A stretch of 64,000 nucleotides of DNA from Brevibacterium luteolum. GTDB lineage: Bacteria > Actinomycetota > Actinomycetes > Actinomycetales > Brevibacteriaceae. This document shows, in pieces, positions 42,961-47,150 of this stretch (the stretch's first letter is position 1; each line of letters begins with the position of its first letter). Position numbers and translations under genes: made by a program. The stretch is from assembly GCF_013004595.1 (NCBI RefSeq), contig NZ_JABEMC010000001.1, forward strand, positions 620,001 through 684,000. The letters run 5' to 3'. Below the pieces are notes generated by a model. It worked only from the letters and a program-made list of their open reading frames with translations. It did no database searches and was not told the origin of the DNA.

Positions 42961-43944
42961 ATGGACATCGACCTCTCAGCGCTCCGTCTGATCGAGCACG
43001 AAAGGGAGATCCCGTTCGAAACGCTCGTCGAGCTCATCGAGCAGGCCCTCCTGACCGCCTACCAGCGCACTGAGGGCGCCTACCCGGACGCCCGTGCGGA
43101 ACTCGACACCAAGACCGGCACCGCCACCATCTGGGCGGTGGAGTTCGACAACGACGACAACCCGATCGGCGAGTTCGACGACACGCCTGACGGATTCGGG
43201 CGGATCGCGGCGATGACCGCACGCAACATCATCCACCAGCGGCTGCGCGACGTTGAGGACGCCTCGGTGCTGGGGACCTTCAAGAACCGCGAAGGCGAGA
43301 TCGTCTCCGGGCTCATCCAGCAGGGCCGCGATGAGCACATGATCCAGGTCGACCTCGGCGAGGTCGAGGCCGTGCTGCCGCCGCACGAACAGGTGCCCGG
43401 CGAGGAATACAGCCACGGCAACCGGATCCGCGTCTACGTCACCGATGTGCACAAGGGCCTCAAAGGGCCCTCGATCACGGTGTCGCGCTCGCACCCGAAC
43501 CTCGTGCGCAAGCTGTTTGCGCATGAGTCCCCGGAGATCGCCGACGGCACCGTCGAGATCGTCTCGCTCTCCCGCGAGGCCGGCCACCGCACGAAGATGG
43601 CCGTGCGGGCCACGGTGCCCGGTGTCAACGCCAAGGGCGCGTGCATCGGCGAGCTCGGCTCCCGGGTGCGTGCGGTGATGGCCGAGCTGGGGGAGGAGAA
43701 GATCGACATCGTCGACTACTCCGACTCGCCGGCGAAGTTCGTCGCCAACGCGCTCTCCCCAGCACGGGCGATGCGCGTCGATGTGCTCAACGAAGCCCAG
43801 AAGCTCGCTCGCGCCGTCGTCCCGGCCGACCAGCTGTCGCTGGCGATCGGCAAGGAGGGGCAGAACGCCCGCCTGGCCGCCAAGCTCACCGGTTGGAAGA
43901 TCGACATCGTCACCCCCGAGGACGACGCCGCCGGCGAGGGCTGA
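42961..43944 (+). CDS. nusA: Transcription factor NusA
   Basis: MDIDLSAL, FGRIAA, SRSHP, REAGHRTK, LSLAIGKEGQNARLAAKLTGW. Confidence 0.99.
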   Translation: MDIDLSALRLIEHEREIPFETLVELIEQALLTAYQRTEGAYPDARAELDTKTGTATIWAVEFDNDDNPIGEFDDTPDGFGRIAAMTARNIIHQRLRDVEDASVLGTFKNREGEIVSGLIQQGRDEHMIQVDLGEVEAVLPPHEQVPGEEYSHGNRIRVYVTDVHKGLKGPSITVSRSHPNLVRKLFAHESPEIADGTVEIVSLSREAGHRTKMAVRATVPGVNAKGACIGELGSRVRAVMAELGEEKIDIVDYSDSPAKFVANALSPARAMRVDVLNEAQKLARAVVPADQLSLAIGKEGQNARLAAKLTGWKIDIVTPEDDAAGEG

Positions 43945-43983
43945 GTGACGGCAGCGCCTGCGGGCAGTGTTAGACTGGCAGAC

Positions 43984-44262
43984 GTGGTATGTGCTGGTGA
44001 ACCTCTGCGCATGTGTCTGGCATGCCGGAAGCGGGAGCCGATGAGTCGGCTCGTCAGGCTCGCAGTGGTTGACGAGAGCACACCGCACATTGCGGTTGAC
44101 GCCCAGCGCAGGCTGCCCGGAAGGGGAGCCTGGATCCATCCCGATCAGCGCTGCGTCGACTCAGCAGTGAAGAGAAGCGCGTTCAGGCGAGCGCTGCGCA
44201 CCCAGGCCCCGGCCGGTGCACAGCTGCTCGATGACATCCGTCGGATTACGGAAAGCAGATGA
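43984..44262 (+). CDS. ylxR: YlxR/RnpM (DUF448) family RNA-binding protein
   Basis: PLRMCLACR, LVRL, PGRGAWIH, C..SA.KR.AF.RALR; GTG 43984 lies 7 nt after TAGACT. Confidence 0.9.
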   Translation: MVCAGEPLRMCLACRKREPMSRLVRLAVVDESTPHIAVDAQRRLPGRGAWIHPDQRCVDSAVKRSAFRRALRTQAPAGAQLLDDIRRITESR

Positions 44263-44353
44263 ACCGAATGGAAACCCAGCAGTGAGTGCTCAGAAATGAC
44301 ACCCGACGCATACGGTCGTGAGCAGTGAAATGAGAACTGTTCACTCACGATGA
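44259..44353 (+). promoter_or_regulatory. Chain of five start-stop-overlapping mini-ORFs upstream of infB
   Basis: RTGA overlaps at 44259, 44282, 44296, 44325, 44330 and 44350; peptides MNRMETQQ, MSAQK, MTPDAYGREQ, MK, MRTVHSR. Confidence 0.7.
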
Positions 44354-44389
44354 GGTTCCTTCCTGTCCGGGAAGGAACCCGGACAGGAG
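44354..44389 (+). promoter_or_regulatory. Two mutually exclusive hairpins at the infB ribosome-binding site
   Basis: 44354-44363 pairs with 44370-44379 (10 bp); 44361-44371 pairs with 44378-44388 (11 bp, covers the AGGA of the SD). Confidence 0.65.
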
Positions 44390-44393
44390 AAAA

Positions 44394-47150
44394 GTGGCAA
44401 AGCCCCGTGTCCATGAGCTCGCGAAGGAGCTCGGCACAACAAGCAAAGACGTGCTGGCGAAGCTGCAGGAGATGGGCGAATTCGTCCGCACTGCATCCTC
44501 GACAGTCGAAGCACCGGTGGTGCGCAAGCTGAAGGAAGCCTACGGCGATTCCGGCAGCGCAGGTGCGAAGAAGGACAAGGCTGCACAGAAGCCTGCCGCC
44601 CCGAAGCCGGGCGCGAAGTCCGCCCCCAAGCCCGGAGCCTCCGGCAGCGCCAAGCCTGCCGGCCCGGCAGCCGAGGAGAAGAAGGCAGCTGCCCCGAAGC
44701 CGGCCGCCAAGCCCGGCCAGTCAGCCCCGATGCCGGGCGCGCAGCCCGCTCCCAAGCCGGCCCCCAGGCCCGGTGCTGCCGGAGCCAAGCCCGGACCGCG
44801 CCCCGGAGGCGTTCGCGGCGGCGCACGCCCTGGCAACAACCCGTTCGCACCCTCGCAGGGGATGCCCAAGCCCGGACCGCGCCCTGGTGGCGGCGGCCGC
44901 GGCGGTGCACGTCCTGGCAACAACCCGTTCGCGCCCTCGCAGGGGATGCCCAAGCCCGGACCGCGCCCCGGTGGCAGCGGCGACGCCGCCCGCACCGGCG
45001 GTGGCCCGAAGCCGCGCGGCGGCAAGCCAACCCCGCGTCCGGGCGCACCGCGCCCGAACCCGGCGATGCTGAAGAACTCCGCCCTGGCCAAGCCCGCGCC
45101 TTCGCGCGGCGGCGGCCGGGGACCCGGCGGCCCGGGCGGCCCCGGCGGCGGTCCCGGTGGACCTCCGCGCGGCGGACGTCCGGGTGGTCCGCGCGGCTCC
45201 GGTCGCGGTCGCGGCGCCACCCAGGGTGCCTTCGGCCGCGGCGGCGGTCGTGCACGGAACAAGAAGTCCAAGCGCGCAAAGCGCCAGGAGATGGAGCAGA
45301 TGCAGGCTCCGTCGATCGGCGGCGTCACCGTTCCGCGCGGCGACGGCAGCACCCCGCTGCGCCTGCGCCGCGGATCCTCGCTGGCCGACTTCGCCGAGAA
45401 GATCAACACCGATCCGACGAACCTCGTCACGGTGCTCTTCCACCTCGGTGAGATGGCCACGATCACCCAGTCGCTGGACGAGGAGACCTTCCAGATCCTC
45501 GGCGAGGAGCTCGGCTACAAGATTCAGATCGTCTCGCCTGAGGACGAGGACCGCGAGCTGCTCGAGAGCTTCGACATCGACCTCGAGGCCGAAGCCGAGG
45601 CTGAGGACGATGAGGATCTGCAGGCCCGTCCGCCGGTCGTGACCGTCATGGGTCACGTCGATCACGGTAAGACGAAGCTGCTTGATGCGATCCGCTCGGC
45701 TGACGTCACAGCCAAGGAGGCCGGCGGCATCACCCAGCACATCGGCGCCTACCAGGTGTCGATGGAGCACGAGGGCGAGAACCGCCGCATCACCTTCCTC
45801 GACACCCCCGGTCACGAGGCGTTCACCGCCATGCGTGCCCGCGGTGCCAAGGCCACCGACGTCGCGATCCTCGTCGTCGCTGCCGATGACGGTGTCATGC
45901 CGCAGACCATTGAGGCGCTCAACCACGCCCAGGCTGCCGGTGTGCCGGTCGTCGTGGCGGTCAACAAGATCGATAAGGACACCGCGAACCCGCAGAAGGT
46001 CATGTCGCAGTTGACCGAATACGATCTCATCGCCGAGGAGTTCGGCGGCGAGACGATGTTCGTGCCGATCTCGGCGCTGCAGCGCAAGGGCATCGACGAC
46101 CTGCTCGAGGCCGTGCTGCTGACCACTGATGCGGCACTGGACCTCAAGGCCAACCCGGACAAGTCCGCCCGCGGCATCGCCATCGAAGCCAAGCTCGACA
46201 AGGGCCGCGGTGCCGTTGCCACCGTGCTCGTCGAGTCCGGCACCCTCAAGCAGGGCGATGCGATTGTCTGCGGCACTGCCTACGGTCGTGTGCGTGCGCT
46301 GTTCGACGAGAACGGCCAGTCGGTCGAAGAGGCCGGACCCTCGCGTCCGGTGCAGGTGCTGGGACTGTCATCGGTGCCGCGCGCCGGTGACACGTTCCTG
46401 GCCACCGATGACGACCGCACTGCCCGCCAGATCGCGGAGAAGCGCGATGCCATCGAACGCAATGCCGCTCAGGCACGCGGACGCAAGCGCATCAGCCTCG
46501 AGGACTTCACCAAGGCGCTCGAAGAGGGCAAGGTCGACATGCTCAACCTCATCCTCAAGGGCGACGTCTCCGGTGCAGTCGAAGCACTCGAGGATTCGCT
46601 GCTCAAGATCGATGTGGGCGAGGAAGTCGACCTGCGGATCATCCACCGCGGCGTCGGTGCGATCACCGAGAACGACATCAACCTCGCCACCGTCGACAAC
46701 GCGATCGTCATCGGCTTCAACGTCCGGCCCGAAGCCAAGGCCCGCGACCTGGCGGAGTCCGAGGGCGTCGATGTCCGGTACTACTCGGTCATCTACGACG
46801 CGATCGACGACATCGAGAACTCGCTCAAGGGCATGCTCAAGCCCGAGTTCGAGGAAGTCCACACCGGTTCGGCCGAGATCCGCGAAGTGTTCCGCTCCTC
46901 GAAGTGGGGCAACATCGCCGGCTGCATGGTCAAGGACGGCGTCATCAAGCGCAACTCCAAGGCCCGCATCACCCGCGATGGAGTCGTCGTCGGCGACAAC
47001 CTCACAGTGGAGTCGCTGCGCCGCTTCAAGGACGACGCCACCGAGGTCCGCGAGGGCTTCGAGTGCGGTGTCGGACTCGGCAGCTTCAACGACATCCGCG
47101 AAGGCGACCTCATCGAGACCTTCGAGATGCAGGAGAAGCCGCGCGACTGA
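44394..47150 (+). CDS. infB: Translation initiation factor IF-2
   Basis: [34 protein letters not shown]. Confidence 0.99.
44785..44975 (+). repeat. Tandem 81/84-bp coding repeat (about 2.3 copies) in the IF2 N-domain
   Basis: Units start at 44785, 44866 and 44950, encoding [26 protein letters not shown]. Confidence 0.85.

What the first reader, a model, noticed from the sequence alone, without database searches (positions are those of the whole stretch)
44259..44532. Relay of six (A/G)TGA-coupled mini-ORFs from the ylxR stop into infB: candidate reinitiation sensor for IF2 autoregulation
Seen in sequence: the ylxR stop overlaps an ATG (ATGA, 44259). From there every ORF's stop overlaps the next start by 4 nt: MNRMETQQ* (44259-44285), GTG-SAQK* (44282-44299), MTPDAYGREQ* (44296-44328), GTG-K* (44325-44333), MRTVHSR* (44330-44353), then a 60-codon ORF (44350-44532) that runs out of frame across the infB SD and start. 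A side route exists: a GTG directly after the first stop opens 44286-44321, whose GTGA at 44318 is in frame with MRTVHSR, so both routes converge. That is seven RTGA tetramers in about 95 nt of high-GC DNA, all frame-linked. Established: RTGA overlaps drive termination-reinitiation, and initiation needs IF2 and fMet-tRNA. Inference: the fraction of ribosomes completing 5-6 serial reinitiations would depend steeply on IF2 activity, giving feedback on infB by RBS occlusion or hairpin switching. I know of no description of such a system but cannot check the literature.
Basis: partly seen in the sequence, partly recalled or inferred. Interest (0 to 1): 0.88.

Follow-up and report, generated by a model that had tools for sequence, protein, structure and literature searches.

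The report
Mini-ORF relay leader before infB
Between ylxR and the gene for translation initiation factor IF2 of this Brevibacterium lies a chain of tiny reading frames, each stop overlapping the next start, ending just before a hairpin; the same arrangement stands in front of infB throughout the Actinomycetes and I could not find it described.

Summary
A chain of 6 or more from the ylxR stop arises in 24 of 20,000 dinucleotide shuffles.

It is the Brevibacterium form of a leader shared by the whole class. Of 211 genomes from 50 families of Actinomycetes, 173 hold a strict chain of 3 or more stop/start-overlapped ORFs between ylxR and infB, against 15% of shuffles. Spacings between neighbouring RTGA are 3n+2 in 156 of 191 distinct units, against 18 of 68 in flanking coding DNA, while unit interiors and peptides vary.

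The chain ends at a stop 1-4 nt before a covarying hairpin, S1. S1 ends 12-19 nt before the infB start. A strict form of the motif occurs about once per genome, at infB. It was not seen in other classes of the phylum. Rfam has no match and nine literature searches found no description.

Most likely ribosomes pass along the chain by serial termination-reinitiation to a fixed stop, where they must melt S1 and so gate infB initiation. IF2 sensing remains an untested, attractive extension. Translation itself has not been shown.

The parts
43945..44262 (+). ylxR (DUF448/YlxR); its TGA stop (44260-44262) is inside the first ATGA
   Evidence: Pfam PF04296, E 4.5e-21; ORF list. The protein is only 37-57% identical within the genus.
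44259..44285 (+). Mini-ORF 1 (MNRMETQQ*). The start conserved across the genus is the internal ATG at 44268 (METQQ*).
   Evidence: The ATG at alignment columns 17-19 of A3 is invariant in 24 of 24 distinct Brevibacterium sequences. The ATGA on the ylxR stop is not conserved.
44282..44299 (+). Mini-ORF 2, GTG start overlapping the stop of ORF 1 (GTGA)
   Evidence: TGA is invariant; the preceding base is G in 23 sequences and A in 1 (L025), so a start codon is kept in all 24.
44296..44328 (+). Mini-ORF 3 (MTPDAYGREQ*), ATGA link at 44296
   Evidence: The ATGA is invariant in the genus. The interior varies and in some species changes length by 1-2 nt, which moves the in-frame stop to the next TGA.
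44325..44333 (+). Mini-ORF 4 (GTG-AAA-TGA), GTGA link at 44325
   Evidence: The link is lost in L011, L018, L022 and L023, so it is not essential in the genus.
44330..44353 (+). Mini-ORF 5 (MRTVHSR*). Its stop (44351-44353) is the terminal stop just before hairpin S1.
   Evidence: ATGA 44330 is invariant. The stop/start at 44350-44353 is ATGA in most sequences, TGATG in some, and TAGTG in L003 and L008, so both a stop and a start are kept.
44350..44532 (+). Sixth ORF (60 codons), reading through S1, the SD and the infB start out of frame
   Evidence: Its frame and end are not conserved in the genus, so only its start seems constrained.
44286..44321 (+). Side-route ORF (GTG 44286 to the TGA inside GTGA 44318)
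   Evidence: Read. GTGA 44318 is replaced by GAGA in the larger Brevibacterium clade, where it covaries as part of helix P2.
44286..44302 (+). Hairpin P1 (44286-44290 with 44298-44302), specific to the genus and weak in the window
   Evidence: 91.7% of cells paired, 1 pair with changes on both sides. Window energy -3.8 kcal/mol, z -1.1.
44318..44344 (+). Hairpin P2 (44318-44326 with 44336-44344), specific to the genus. Its loop holds the conserved GTGA/ATGA of links 44325 and 44330.
   Evidence: 89.3% paired, 3 pairs with changes on both sides. Energy -11.3 kcal/mol, z -4.5.
44354..44379 (+). Hairpin S1 (44354-44363 with 44370-44379), the class-wide hairpin that follows the terminal stop
   Evidence: Genus alignment: 97.4% paired, 4 pairs with double changes. 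Class alignment: 95.7% of 834 cells paired, 36 cells with double changes, 0 of 500 shuffles reach this, and slid controls reach at most 60%. Energy -17.6 kcal/mol.
44360..44389 (+). Possible alternative helix S2 (44360-44371 with 44378-44389), which would pair the SD and is mutually exclusive with S1
   Evidence: It is the minimum-free-energy fold of the window (-23.0 kcal/mol). It shows no covariation, and a central mismatch is left uncompensated in 13 of 24 sequences.
44385..44396 (+). infB Shine-Dalgarno sequence (AGGAG, 44385-44389) and GTG start (44394)
   Evidence: The SD region is invariant in the genus. GTG is the infB start in 210 of 224 genomes.

Best explanation
The window holds the Brevibacterium version of an infB leader that is conserved across the class Actinomycetes.

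Anatomy. One to five tiny ORFs of 4-7 codons, more in Brevibacterium, are joined by overlapping stop/start signals. ATGA is commonest, with GTGA and TGATG also used. None has a Shine-Dalgarno sequence of its own. The chain is often entered directly from the ylxR stop. It ends at a stop codon 1-4 nt before a covarying hairpin (S1), which in turn ends 12-19 nt before the infB start.

Proposed working. Ribosomes that finish ylxR, or that start at the first mini-ORF, are passed from frame to frame by serial termination-reinitiation. This places them at a fixed stop. There the ribosome's footprint must unwind the 5' arm of S1, right next to the infB ribosome-binding site. infB initiation is thereby tied to translation coming from upstream.

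What is shown: the conservation, the reading-phase signature, the hairpin, the geometry and the restriction to infB.

What is inferred: that the ORFs are translated, that S1 melting changes infB initiation, and in which direction. For Brevibacterium the folding model predicts unmasking of the SD, that is, activation.
For: (1) Conservation. Of 211 genomes analysed (50 families), 173 have a strict chain of 3 or more overlapped ORFs in the spacer, against 15% of dinucleotide shuffles. 45 of 50 families have at least one such genome.

(2) Reading phase. Spacing between adjacent RTGA is 2 mod 3 in 156 of 191 distinct units. It is 11 nt in 31 families, 14 nt in 42 and 17 nt in 6. In flanking coding DNA the figure is 18 of 68.

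(3) Starts are selected, not only stops. The base before TGA is A in 265 of 422 cases in the spacer, against 180 of 1006 in flanking coding DNA. ATGA changes to GTGA, and ATGA to TAGTG or TGATG, and these replacements keep both signals.

(4) Interiors and peptides vary. Column entropy is 1.0-1.7 bits. Terminal ORFs of 5, 6 and 7 codons occur in 51, 69 and 8 distinct forms. TAA, TGA and TAG interchange at the terminal stop.

(5) Geometry. The terminal stop lies 1-4 nt before S1 in 130 of 141 sequences. S1 ends 12-19 nt before the start in 140 of 141. S1 covaries.

(6) Specificity. The pattern ATGAG-N6-ATGAG-N9-ATGA matched in 74 of 151 class genomes, with 78 matches in all. 73 of these lie 60-260 nt upstream of infB. 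The reversed control pattern gave 0 matches in 151 genomes.

(7) A mini-ORF is almost always kept. At least one stands between ylxR and S1 in 210 of 211 genomes. The relay persists in 15 genomes where no ylxR was found.

(8) Folding model. A ribosome placed at the terminal stop raises the predicted SD accessibility by more than 0.1 in 84 of 190 genomes and lowers it in 17. In Brevibacterium it rises from 0.19 to 0.50.

(9) Established knowledge. ATGA and TGATG overlaps mediate termination-reinitiation coupling (PMC6728339, passages). Overlaps of uORF with uORF and of uORF with ORF are noted in a mycobacterium (bioRxiv 10.1101/2022.06.01.494293, passages).
Against: - No ribosome-profiling or reporter evidence was available, so translation is inferred from sequence alone.
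- In 81 of 211 genomes the ylxR stop does not overlap a start. In 54 of 211 the chain begins more than 10 nt downstream of it. In the 15 genomes without a detected ylxR, the first mini-ORF needs its own entry, and no clear SD was seen.
- Some positions inside the units are more conserved than a pure start/stop relay needs. Examples are the G after ATGA and the CG before it. A repeated protein-binding motif would also produce this.
- The SD-accessibility model is indifferent in 89 of 190 genomes and goes the other way in 17. In many lineages the SD is already predicted to be open.
- S2, the only helix that would directly hide the SD, has no covariation support.
- Shuffles that keep dinucleotides still give chains of 3 or more in 15% of cases.
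- Genomes of one clade are related, so the counts overstate the number of independent events.
Confidence: 0.55

Rival explanations
1. IF2 or initiation-capacity sensor (the first reader's idea; a bacterial counterpart of delayed reinitiation at yeast GCN4). Each SD-less restart needs IF2 with fMet-tRNA. The share of ribosomes that complete several restarts would then depend steeply on initiation capacity and would set infB translation through S1 and the SD.
For: - The relay stands in front of infB and almost nowhere else in each genome.
- Several serial restarts are conserved, and at least one mini-ORF is kept even where ylxR could end directly at S1 (210 of 211 genomes).
- The restarts lack SD sequences.
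- infB itself nearly always starts with GTG (210 of 224).
- That initiation needs IF2 and fMet-tRNA is established knowledge. GCN4 is recalled, not read here.
Against: - Nothing here measures any dependence on IF2.
- The number of links varies from 1 to 6 between lineages, which fits poorly with a tuned ultrasensitive device.
- The predicted direction in Brevibacterium is activation by the relay. That would give positive feedback, not homeostatic feedback.
- No IF2 autoregulation is reported in the E. coli infB literature that I read (PMC6511841, passages), where control is by NusA, promoters and mRNA stability.
Confidence: 0.15
2. Transcription-level device. Translation of the relay keeps a ribosome close behind RNA polymerase through the spacer. 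This prevents Rho loading on the C-rich, G-poor units, or prevents NusA/NusG-assisted pausing or termination at S1. infB transcription would then depend on upstream translation, in the manner of an attenuator.
For: - The terminal stop is placed so that a ribosome there blocks formation of S1, as in leader-peptide attenuators.
- Unit sequences are C-rich.
- Premature termination linked to translated uORFs and Rho is reported as common in a mycobacterium (bioRxiv 10.1101/2022.06.01.494293, abstract and passages).
- ilvB1 attenuation by a uORF is described (PMC13236596, passages).
- NusA autoregulates the E. coli operon (PMC6511841).
Against: - S1 is not followed by a U tract, and no intrinsic-terminator-like site lies in 43900-44500.
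- S1 sits 12-19 nt from the start codon, next to the SD, which suggests a role in initiation.
- There are no regulatory codons in the peptides, which vary freely.
- RNA-library contigs of three studies run from ylxR across the spacer into infB. This is weak evidence, since contigs prove neither a single transcript nor the absence of termination.
Confidence: 0.2
3. Not translated. The repeated units (consensus ATGAG with C-rich tails) are binding sites for a protein such as YlxR/RnpM, NusA or IF2, or form a structured RNA. On this reading the start/stop overlaps are incidental.
For: - The units are direct repeats with some conserved interior positions.
- YlxR is an RNA-binding protein (search listing and abstracts of PMC10853771 and PMC11622646).
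- A further conserved box (GGAAGC-R-GGTCGA) lies upstream of the relay, and it is read in different frames in different lineages.
- Genus-specific helices P1 and P2 covary in Brevibacterium.
Against: - Spacings vary (5 to 29 nt) yet stay 3n+2, which a binding array does not predict.
- ATGA-to-GTGA and ATGA-to-TAGTG or TGATG replacements keep coding signals rather than sequence.
- All three stop codons interchange at the terminal stop.
- Unit number varies from 1 to 5.
- The relay persists where ylxR was not found.
- No Rfam family matches, even at E up to 10.
Confidence: 0.08
4. Chance, or neutral debris of a ylxR 3' end that has moved back and forth, with stops in all three frames simply catching any reading frame.
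For: - TGAs lie in all three frames, so any ORF that enters the region ends on one of them. The coincidence of the ylxR stop with a unit is therefore automatic (my reading).
- The ylxR end is highly variable.
Against: - The arrangement is conserved class-wide in 45 of 50 families, including low-GC lineages.
- A precedes TGA in 63% of cases in the spacer against 18% in flanking coding DNA.
- The strict motif is unique to infB within each genome.
- The geometry relative to S1 is fixed.
Confidence: 0.02

Closest known systems
Translational coupling by termination-reinitiation at overlapping gene pairs (ATGA, TGATG); Huber et al. 2019, PMC6728339 (passages read)
   Same: The same stop/start overlaps of 4 nt and 1 nt, on one strand, with the downstream start reached by a terminating ribosome.
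   Different: - There, two full-length genes are coupled. Here 1-6 frames of 2-10 codons are strung in series, and the products vary freely.
- The restarts here have no SD, whereas that paper found the SD important in 4 of 5 E. coli pairs.
- The chain here does not end on the regulated gene. It ends about 40 nt before it, at a hairpin.
NUGA/URRUG overlaps between uORFs and ORFs, and between uORFs, in a mycobacterium; D'Halluin et al., bioRxiv 10.1101/2022.06.01.494293 (passages read)
   Same: Short upstream ORFs overlap the next ORF by 4 or 1 nt. Many lack an SD. A link to termination-reinitiation and to premature transcription termination is proposed.
   Different: - It is a genome-wide survey. 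infB, Rv2839c, Rv2840c and nusA do not occur in its main text.
- It describes no conserved multi-link chain and no cross-class conservation.
- Its supplementary tables could not be read. The preprint's are closed, and the journal version PMC10122055 is not held. They might list such uORFs.
Leader-peptide attenuators (trp type; ilvB1 in mycobacteria, PMC13236596, passages read)
   Same: A short translated ORF has its stop placed so that the ribosome's footprint decides which hairpin can form.
   Different: - There are no regulatory codons, and the peptides vary.
- There is no terminator with a U tract.
- There are several chained ORFs instead of one.
- The hairpin abuts a ribosome-binding site.
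GCN4-type control by reinitiation after short uORFs in yeast (recalled, not read here)
   Same: Several short uORFs. Whether the ribosome restarts depends on reloading the factor that delivers initiator tRNA.
   Different: - That system is eukaryotic and depends on scanning.
- Its uORFs are spaced apart, not overlapping.
- No evidence here that the relay senses anything.
Known control of the nusA-infB operon: the rimP-leader attenuator (PMC2965389, passages) and NusA autoregulation, promoters and RNase III sites in E. coli (PMC6511841, passages)
   Same: The same operon and the same regulated gene.
   Different: - Those elements lie at the 5' end of the operon or act on transcription.
- None lies between ylxR and infB.
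- E. coli has no ylxR-infB spacer of this kind.
Autoregulation of IF3 through its unusual start codon (mentioned in PMC6511841; details recalled)
   Same: An initiation-factor gene whose own translation initiation carries a special cis feature.
   Different: A single atypical start codon that IF3 discriminates against. It involves no relay and no hairpin.

Membership tests
Termination-reinitiation (TeRe) coupled ORFs | Stop and next start overlap by 4 nt (NTGA) or 1 nt (TRRTG) on the same strand | tested here: met
   Window: six consecutive 4-nt overlaps. Class: strict chains of 3 or more ORFs in 173 of 211 genomes.
Termination-reinitiation (TeRe) coupled ORFs | All ORFs lie on one transcript | tested here: inconclusive
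   RNA-library contigs of three studies bridge ylxR, the spacer and the infB start (43882-44421, 43956-44447, 44078-44459). Contigs do not prove one transcript, and DNA carry-over is possible. No promoter-like or terminator-like site was found in 43900-44500.
Termination-reinitiation (TeRe) coupled ORFs | Translation of the downstream ORF depends on translation of the upstream one | not testable with these tools
   Needs reporters or ribosome profiling.
Leader-peptide transcription attenuator | Leader peptide enriched in codons for the regulated end product | tested here: not met
   Peptides vary freely (MSAR, MSTR, MTTR and others; MSTQR, MSTSR and others) with no recurrent codon run.
Leader-peptide transcription attenuator | Intrinsic terminator (hairpin plus U tract) downstream of the leader ORF | tested here: not met
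   0 terminator-like sites in 43900-44500. S1 is followed by the purine-rich SD region.
Leader-peptide transcription attenuator | Mutually exclusive alternative helices | tested here: inconclusive
   S1 and S2 exclude each other in the window, but only S1 covaries.
rimP-leader attenuator of the rimP-nusA-infB operon | Lies in the 5' UTR of rimP, with a GGGc...gCCC terminator stem and a U stretch | tested here: not met
   The element lies between ylxR and infB, 1.9 kb downstream of the rimP start. The family description is from PMC2965389.
Any curated RNA family (Rfam 15) | Match to a covariance model | tested here: not met
   Only 3 chance-level hits in 43700-44700 at E up to 10 (best E 3.7, about 14 bits against gathering scores of 45-75).
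SD-sequestering translational operator or riboswitch-like leader | A conserved helix that pairs the SD, supported by covariation | tested here: not met
   S2 is paired in 93.8% of cells but has 0 double changes, and one central pair is broken in 13 of 24 sequences. It is absent outside the window's order.
GCN4-like delayed-reinitiation sensor | Output depends on the availability of the factor that delivers initiator tRNA | not testable with these tools
Only the uORF series itself is shown.

The most novel reading that the evidence does not exclude
Actinomycetes set the synthesis of IF2 with a dedicated ribosome relay. A series of SD-less, overlapping mini-ORFs works as a multiplicative gauge of the cell's capacity to re-start translation, that is, of IF2 with fMet-tRNA, possibly under ppGpp control. 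The ribosome that completes the series opens the hairpin at the infB ribosome-binding site. This would be a bacterial counterpart of GCN4-type reinitiation control, acting on the initiation factor itself. It would be conserved from Bifidobacterium to Streptomyces and Mycobacterium.
Probability: 0.15. Interest if true: 0.95.

Novelty: new variant of a known kind. Interest (0 to 1): 0.8.

Why it matters
How bacteria set the level of IF2 after transcription is largely unknown. The E. coli paper I read says that nothing was known about the mechanism of cold induction of infB, and it describes only transcriptional and stability control (PMC6511841).

Here a compact cis element sits in front of infB and is unique to it. 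It is found across a whole class, including genera of industrial and medical interest: Streptomyces, Bifidobacterium, Mycobacterium, Arthrobacter and Brevibacterium.

It shows a clean evolutionary signature of serial termination-reinitiation. That makes two open questions directly testable:
- whether bacterial ribosomes can be handed through several SD-less restarts in a row;
- whether an initiation-factor gene is gated by upstream translation or by initiation capacity.

It also matters for annotation, because the ylxR-infB 'intergenic' region in these genomes is probably translated. And it offers a natural test bed for measuring reinitiation efficiency.

Tried and rejected
- Rfam scan of 43700-44700 at E up to 10: only chance-level hits.
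- RNAalifold on the 141-sequence alignment A1 predicted no pairs, because the alignment is too gappy. I then tested a named helix with the count of structure pairs.
- The hammerhead-like CUGAUGAG and K-turn-like GA motifs came to mind (recalled). They were dropped because Rfam found nothing and the 3n+2 spacing points to reading frames.
- An SD-sequestering switch (S2) as the core mechanism was rejected as a conserved feature. It shows no covariation and is absent outside the window's order.
- The 60-codon ORF across the infB start as a conserved link was rejected. Its frame and end vary within the genus.
- Codon-periodic conservation inside the units was looked for and none was seen, so there is no evidence for functional peptides.
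- An internal promoter or intrinsic terminator in the spacer: none by the consensus scans. These scans do not cover actinobacterial promoter types.
- The other long mini-ORF chains in the genome (C1:548515, C15:72444) look like GTGA-rich repeats or chance and were not pursued.
- RNA evidence. Only contigs were on hand, so starts, ends, strand and level could not be read. Parts of infB without cover say nothing.
- Literature. Nine full-text searches and term look-ups in eight papers gave no description of an infB mini-ORF relay. The held supplements of PMC9094748 contain neither infB, Rv2839c nor Rv2840c, although their tables may go by coordinates. One search used locus tags recalled from memory and returned mostly unrelated papers. 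PMC10122055 is not held.
- Earlier notes of this scan: nothing on this element.

Full report
**What is in the window**

The region is part of a rimP-nusA-ylxR-infB-rbfA operon (Pfam; ORFs). ylxR (DUF448) ends at 44262 and infB begins with GTG at 44394.
- ATGA at 44259 overlaps the ylxR stop.
- Five mini-ORFs of 2-10 codons follow, and then a 60-codon ORF. Each starts on an RTGA that holds the previous stop (44282, 44296, 44325, 44330, 44350).
- A side route runs through GTGA 44318.

This RTGA density is the highest in the 64-kb window (7 in 98 nt against a mean of 0.6 per 95 nt). A chain of 6 or more from the ylxR stop arises in 24 of 20,000 dinucleotide-preserving shuffles. Genome-wide, chains of 5 or more mini-ORFs occur at 3 places in 5.9 Mb of both strands.

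The spacer also folds unusually well (z = -4.0). It contains hairpins P2 (44318-44344) and S1 (44354-44379), and an alternative helix S2 (44360-44389) that would pair the Shine-Dalgarno sequence.

**The organism and its genus**

The IF2 N-terminus is 98% identical to that of a Brevibacterium sp. record. In 33 Brevibacterium genomes the spacer is conserved at DNA level, although YlxR itself is only 37-57% identical. All 33 carry strict chains of 4-6 ORFs.
- Links at 44282, 44296, 44330 and 44350 are kept. One species has ATGA instead of GTGA at the first of these. Two species have TAGTG instead of ATGA at the last. In each case both a stop and a start survive.
- The link on the ylxR stop itself, the links at 44318 and 44325, and the frame of the last long ORF are not conserved.
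- Helices S1, P2 and, weakly, P1 covary.
- S2 does not covary, and it has an uncompensated central mismatch in 13 of 24 distinct sequences.

**The wider picture**

I located infB with its N-terminal 60 residues in 198 of 201 genomes of the same order and in 146 of 151 genomes of the class. I then fetched the upstream DNA.

ylxR and infB could both be placed in 224 genomes. 13 were dropped because the inferred start position was not a start codon, which left 211 genomes from 50 families.

Nearly all show one architecture:
- units of about 4 and 5 codons joined by ATGA, typically giving peptides such as MSAR and then MSTQR;
- a terminal ORF of 5-7 codons ending in TAA, TGA or TAG;
- then 1-4 nt, a hairpin (S1, typically GGUCCG paired with CGGACC), a further 12-19 nt containing GGAG, and the GTG of infB.

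Named examples include Arthrobacter, Kocuria, Rothia, Bifidobacterium, Streptomyces, Mycolicibacterium, Mycobacterium montefiorense, Micromonospora, Amycolatopsis, Actinomadura, Glycomyces, Williamsia and the low-GC Ca. Nanopelagicaceae.

In 19 published genomes of other classes of the phylum, ylxR ends close to infB and I saw no relay.

**Is it a reading-frame phenomenon?** Four lines of evidence say yes.
1. Strict chains of 3 or more ORFs occur in 173 of 211 spacers, against 15% of dinucleotide shuffles.
2. The distance between neighbouring RTGA varies (5, 8, 11, 14, 17, 20 ... nt) but is 2 mod 3 in 156 of 191 distinct units. In flanking coding DNA the figure is 18 of 68. That is the spacing needed for each TGA to close the frame opened by the previous RTG.
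3. The base before TGA is A in 63% of cases in the spacer and in 18% of cases in flanking coding DNA. Start codons are therefore selected, not only stops.
4. Unit interiors and peptides drift freely. Terminal ORFs differ by whole codons, and the three stop codons interchange.

One caveat applies. Because TGAs lie in all three frames, the coincidence of the ylxR stop with a unit is automatic and is not independent evidence.

**Link to infB**

A strict form of the motif (ATGAG-N6-ATGAG-N9-ATGA) matched in 74 of 151 class genomes, with 78 matches in all. 73 of these lie 60-260 nt upstream of infB, by comparison with the coordinates, and 5 lie elsewhere. The reversed control pattern matched nowhere. 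The counts 'of 151' include two unpublished genomes, which had no match.

At least one mini-ORF stands between ylxR and S1 in 210 of 211 genomes. The relay persists in 15 genomes (families f6, f49, f35) where I found no ylxR between nusA and infB. The element is therefore a leader of infB rather than an appendage of ylxR.

**The hairpin**

Across 141 distinct sequences, S1 is paired in 95.7% of cells, with 36 cells changed on both sides. None of 500 shuffles reaches this, and sliding the partner by one column drops pairing to 60% or 43%.

By the established footprint of a bacterial ribosome, which covers roughly 10 or more nt 3' of the A-site codon, a ribosome on the terminal stop must cover the 5' arm of S1. 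S1 therefore cannot coexist with a terminating ribosome. This step is inference from known geometry.

**Mechanism**

I take the best-supported reading to be a termination-reinitiation relay. It carries ribosomes from ylxR, or from the first mini-ORF, to a fixed stop at the foot of S1, and so couples or gates infB initiation.

A folding model with the ribosome placed on the terminal stop gave these results over 190 genomes:
- predicted SD accessibility rises by more than 0.1 in 84;
- it falls by more than 0.1 in 17;
- it stays within 0.1 in 89;
- in Brevibacterium it rises from 0.19 to 0.50.

The direction of the effect is thus only weakly indicated, and mainly for the window's own genus.

The rivals are listed here with my odds:
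- control at the level of transcription, by masking Rho sites or a pause hairpin (0.2);
- a repeated protein-binding motif without translation (0.08);
- neutral debris (0.02).

RNA-library contigs from three studies run from ylxR across the spacer into infB. That is compatible with one transcript but does not prove it. No sigma-70-like promoter or intrinsic terminator was found in the spacer.

**Comparison with what is known**

Termination-reinitiation at ATGA and TGATG overlaps is well described for gene pairs (PMC6728339, passages). 4-nt and 1-nt overlaps that include uORF-uORF cases have been noted in a mycobacterium (bioRxiv 10.1101/2022.06.01.494293, passages). Neither text mentions infB.

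The known controls of the operon lie elsewhere: the rimP-leader attenuator (PMC2965389), and NusA autoregulation, promoters and RNase III sites in E. coli (PMC6511841).

Rfam 15 has no family for the region. Nine full-text searches found no description. Supplementary uORF tables of the mycobacterial Term-seq study could not be read and might list such ORFs for one species.

I therefore rate the element as a new variant of a known kind. The parts are known (stop/start overlaps, uORFs, a leader hairpin). The architecture is new: conserved, serial and dedicated to infB.

**Verdict**
The relay is real and tied to infB. IF2 sensing is untested, and the SD-hiding helix is unsupported.
- Interest is high, because the signature is strong, the phylogenetic span is wide and decisive experiments are simple.

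Noticed in passing
Upstream of the relay in many loci, e.g. L030:1420-1445, L166, L175, L334 (about 15-25 nt before the first unit); the window has no clear copy: A conserved box (GGAAGC-R-GGTCGA) precedes the first mini-ORF in many families of the class. It falls in different reading frames in different lineages, sometimes inside the ylxR 3' end. It therefore looks like an RNA-level element. Its role is unknown; it might be an entry site for the first mini-ORF.
   Followed up: partly
window 43945-44262 versus 44263-44393: Within Brevibacterium the ylxR protein is poorly conserved (37-57% identity). The downstream non-annotated spacer matches at 79-88% DNA identity. This is the reverse of what is usual for a gene and a spacer.
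   Followed up: partly
Family f23 loci (e.g. L065, L069, L094) and Brevibacterium L004, L005, L014, L037: Here a further ORF starts on the terminal stop (TAATG or ATGA), reads through S1 and the SD, and stops 8 nt past the infB start, inside infB codons 2-3. The chain therefore reaches infB itself.
   Followed up: partly
L073-L092, L115, L142 (family f6) and L158-L165, L203 (family f49): No ylxR was detected between nusA and infB in these small-genome lineages. Judging by the named records, they are relatives of Bifidobacterium and of Ca. Nanopelagicaceae. A relay and S1 are still present. I did not search elsewhere in these genomes for ylxR.
   Followed up: partly
Family f13 genus g13 loci (L027, L045, L047, L048, L050, L051; cf. 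named Pseudokineococcus L279): The spacer between the ylxR stop and infB is 360-650 nt instead of about 60-150 nt, with the relay at its 3' end. I did not examine what fills the extra DNA.
   Followed up: no
G000:C1:548515-548621 (+) and G000:C15:72444-72638 (+), both outside the window: These are the only two other places in the genome with chains of 5-6 overlapped mini-ORFs. Both are rich in GTGA/GGTGA repeats and have no obvious downstream gene link.
   Followed up: partly
G360:C256:2685-2713 and G312:C73:8348-8376 (same genus): A second, nearly identical three-unit ATGA motif lies away from infB in two genomes of one genus. It might be a relay before another gene.
   Followed up: no
window 44394 and all loci: infB starts with GTG in 210 of 224 genomes examined. 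This is an unusually uniform use of a non-ATG start.
   Followed up: no
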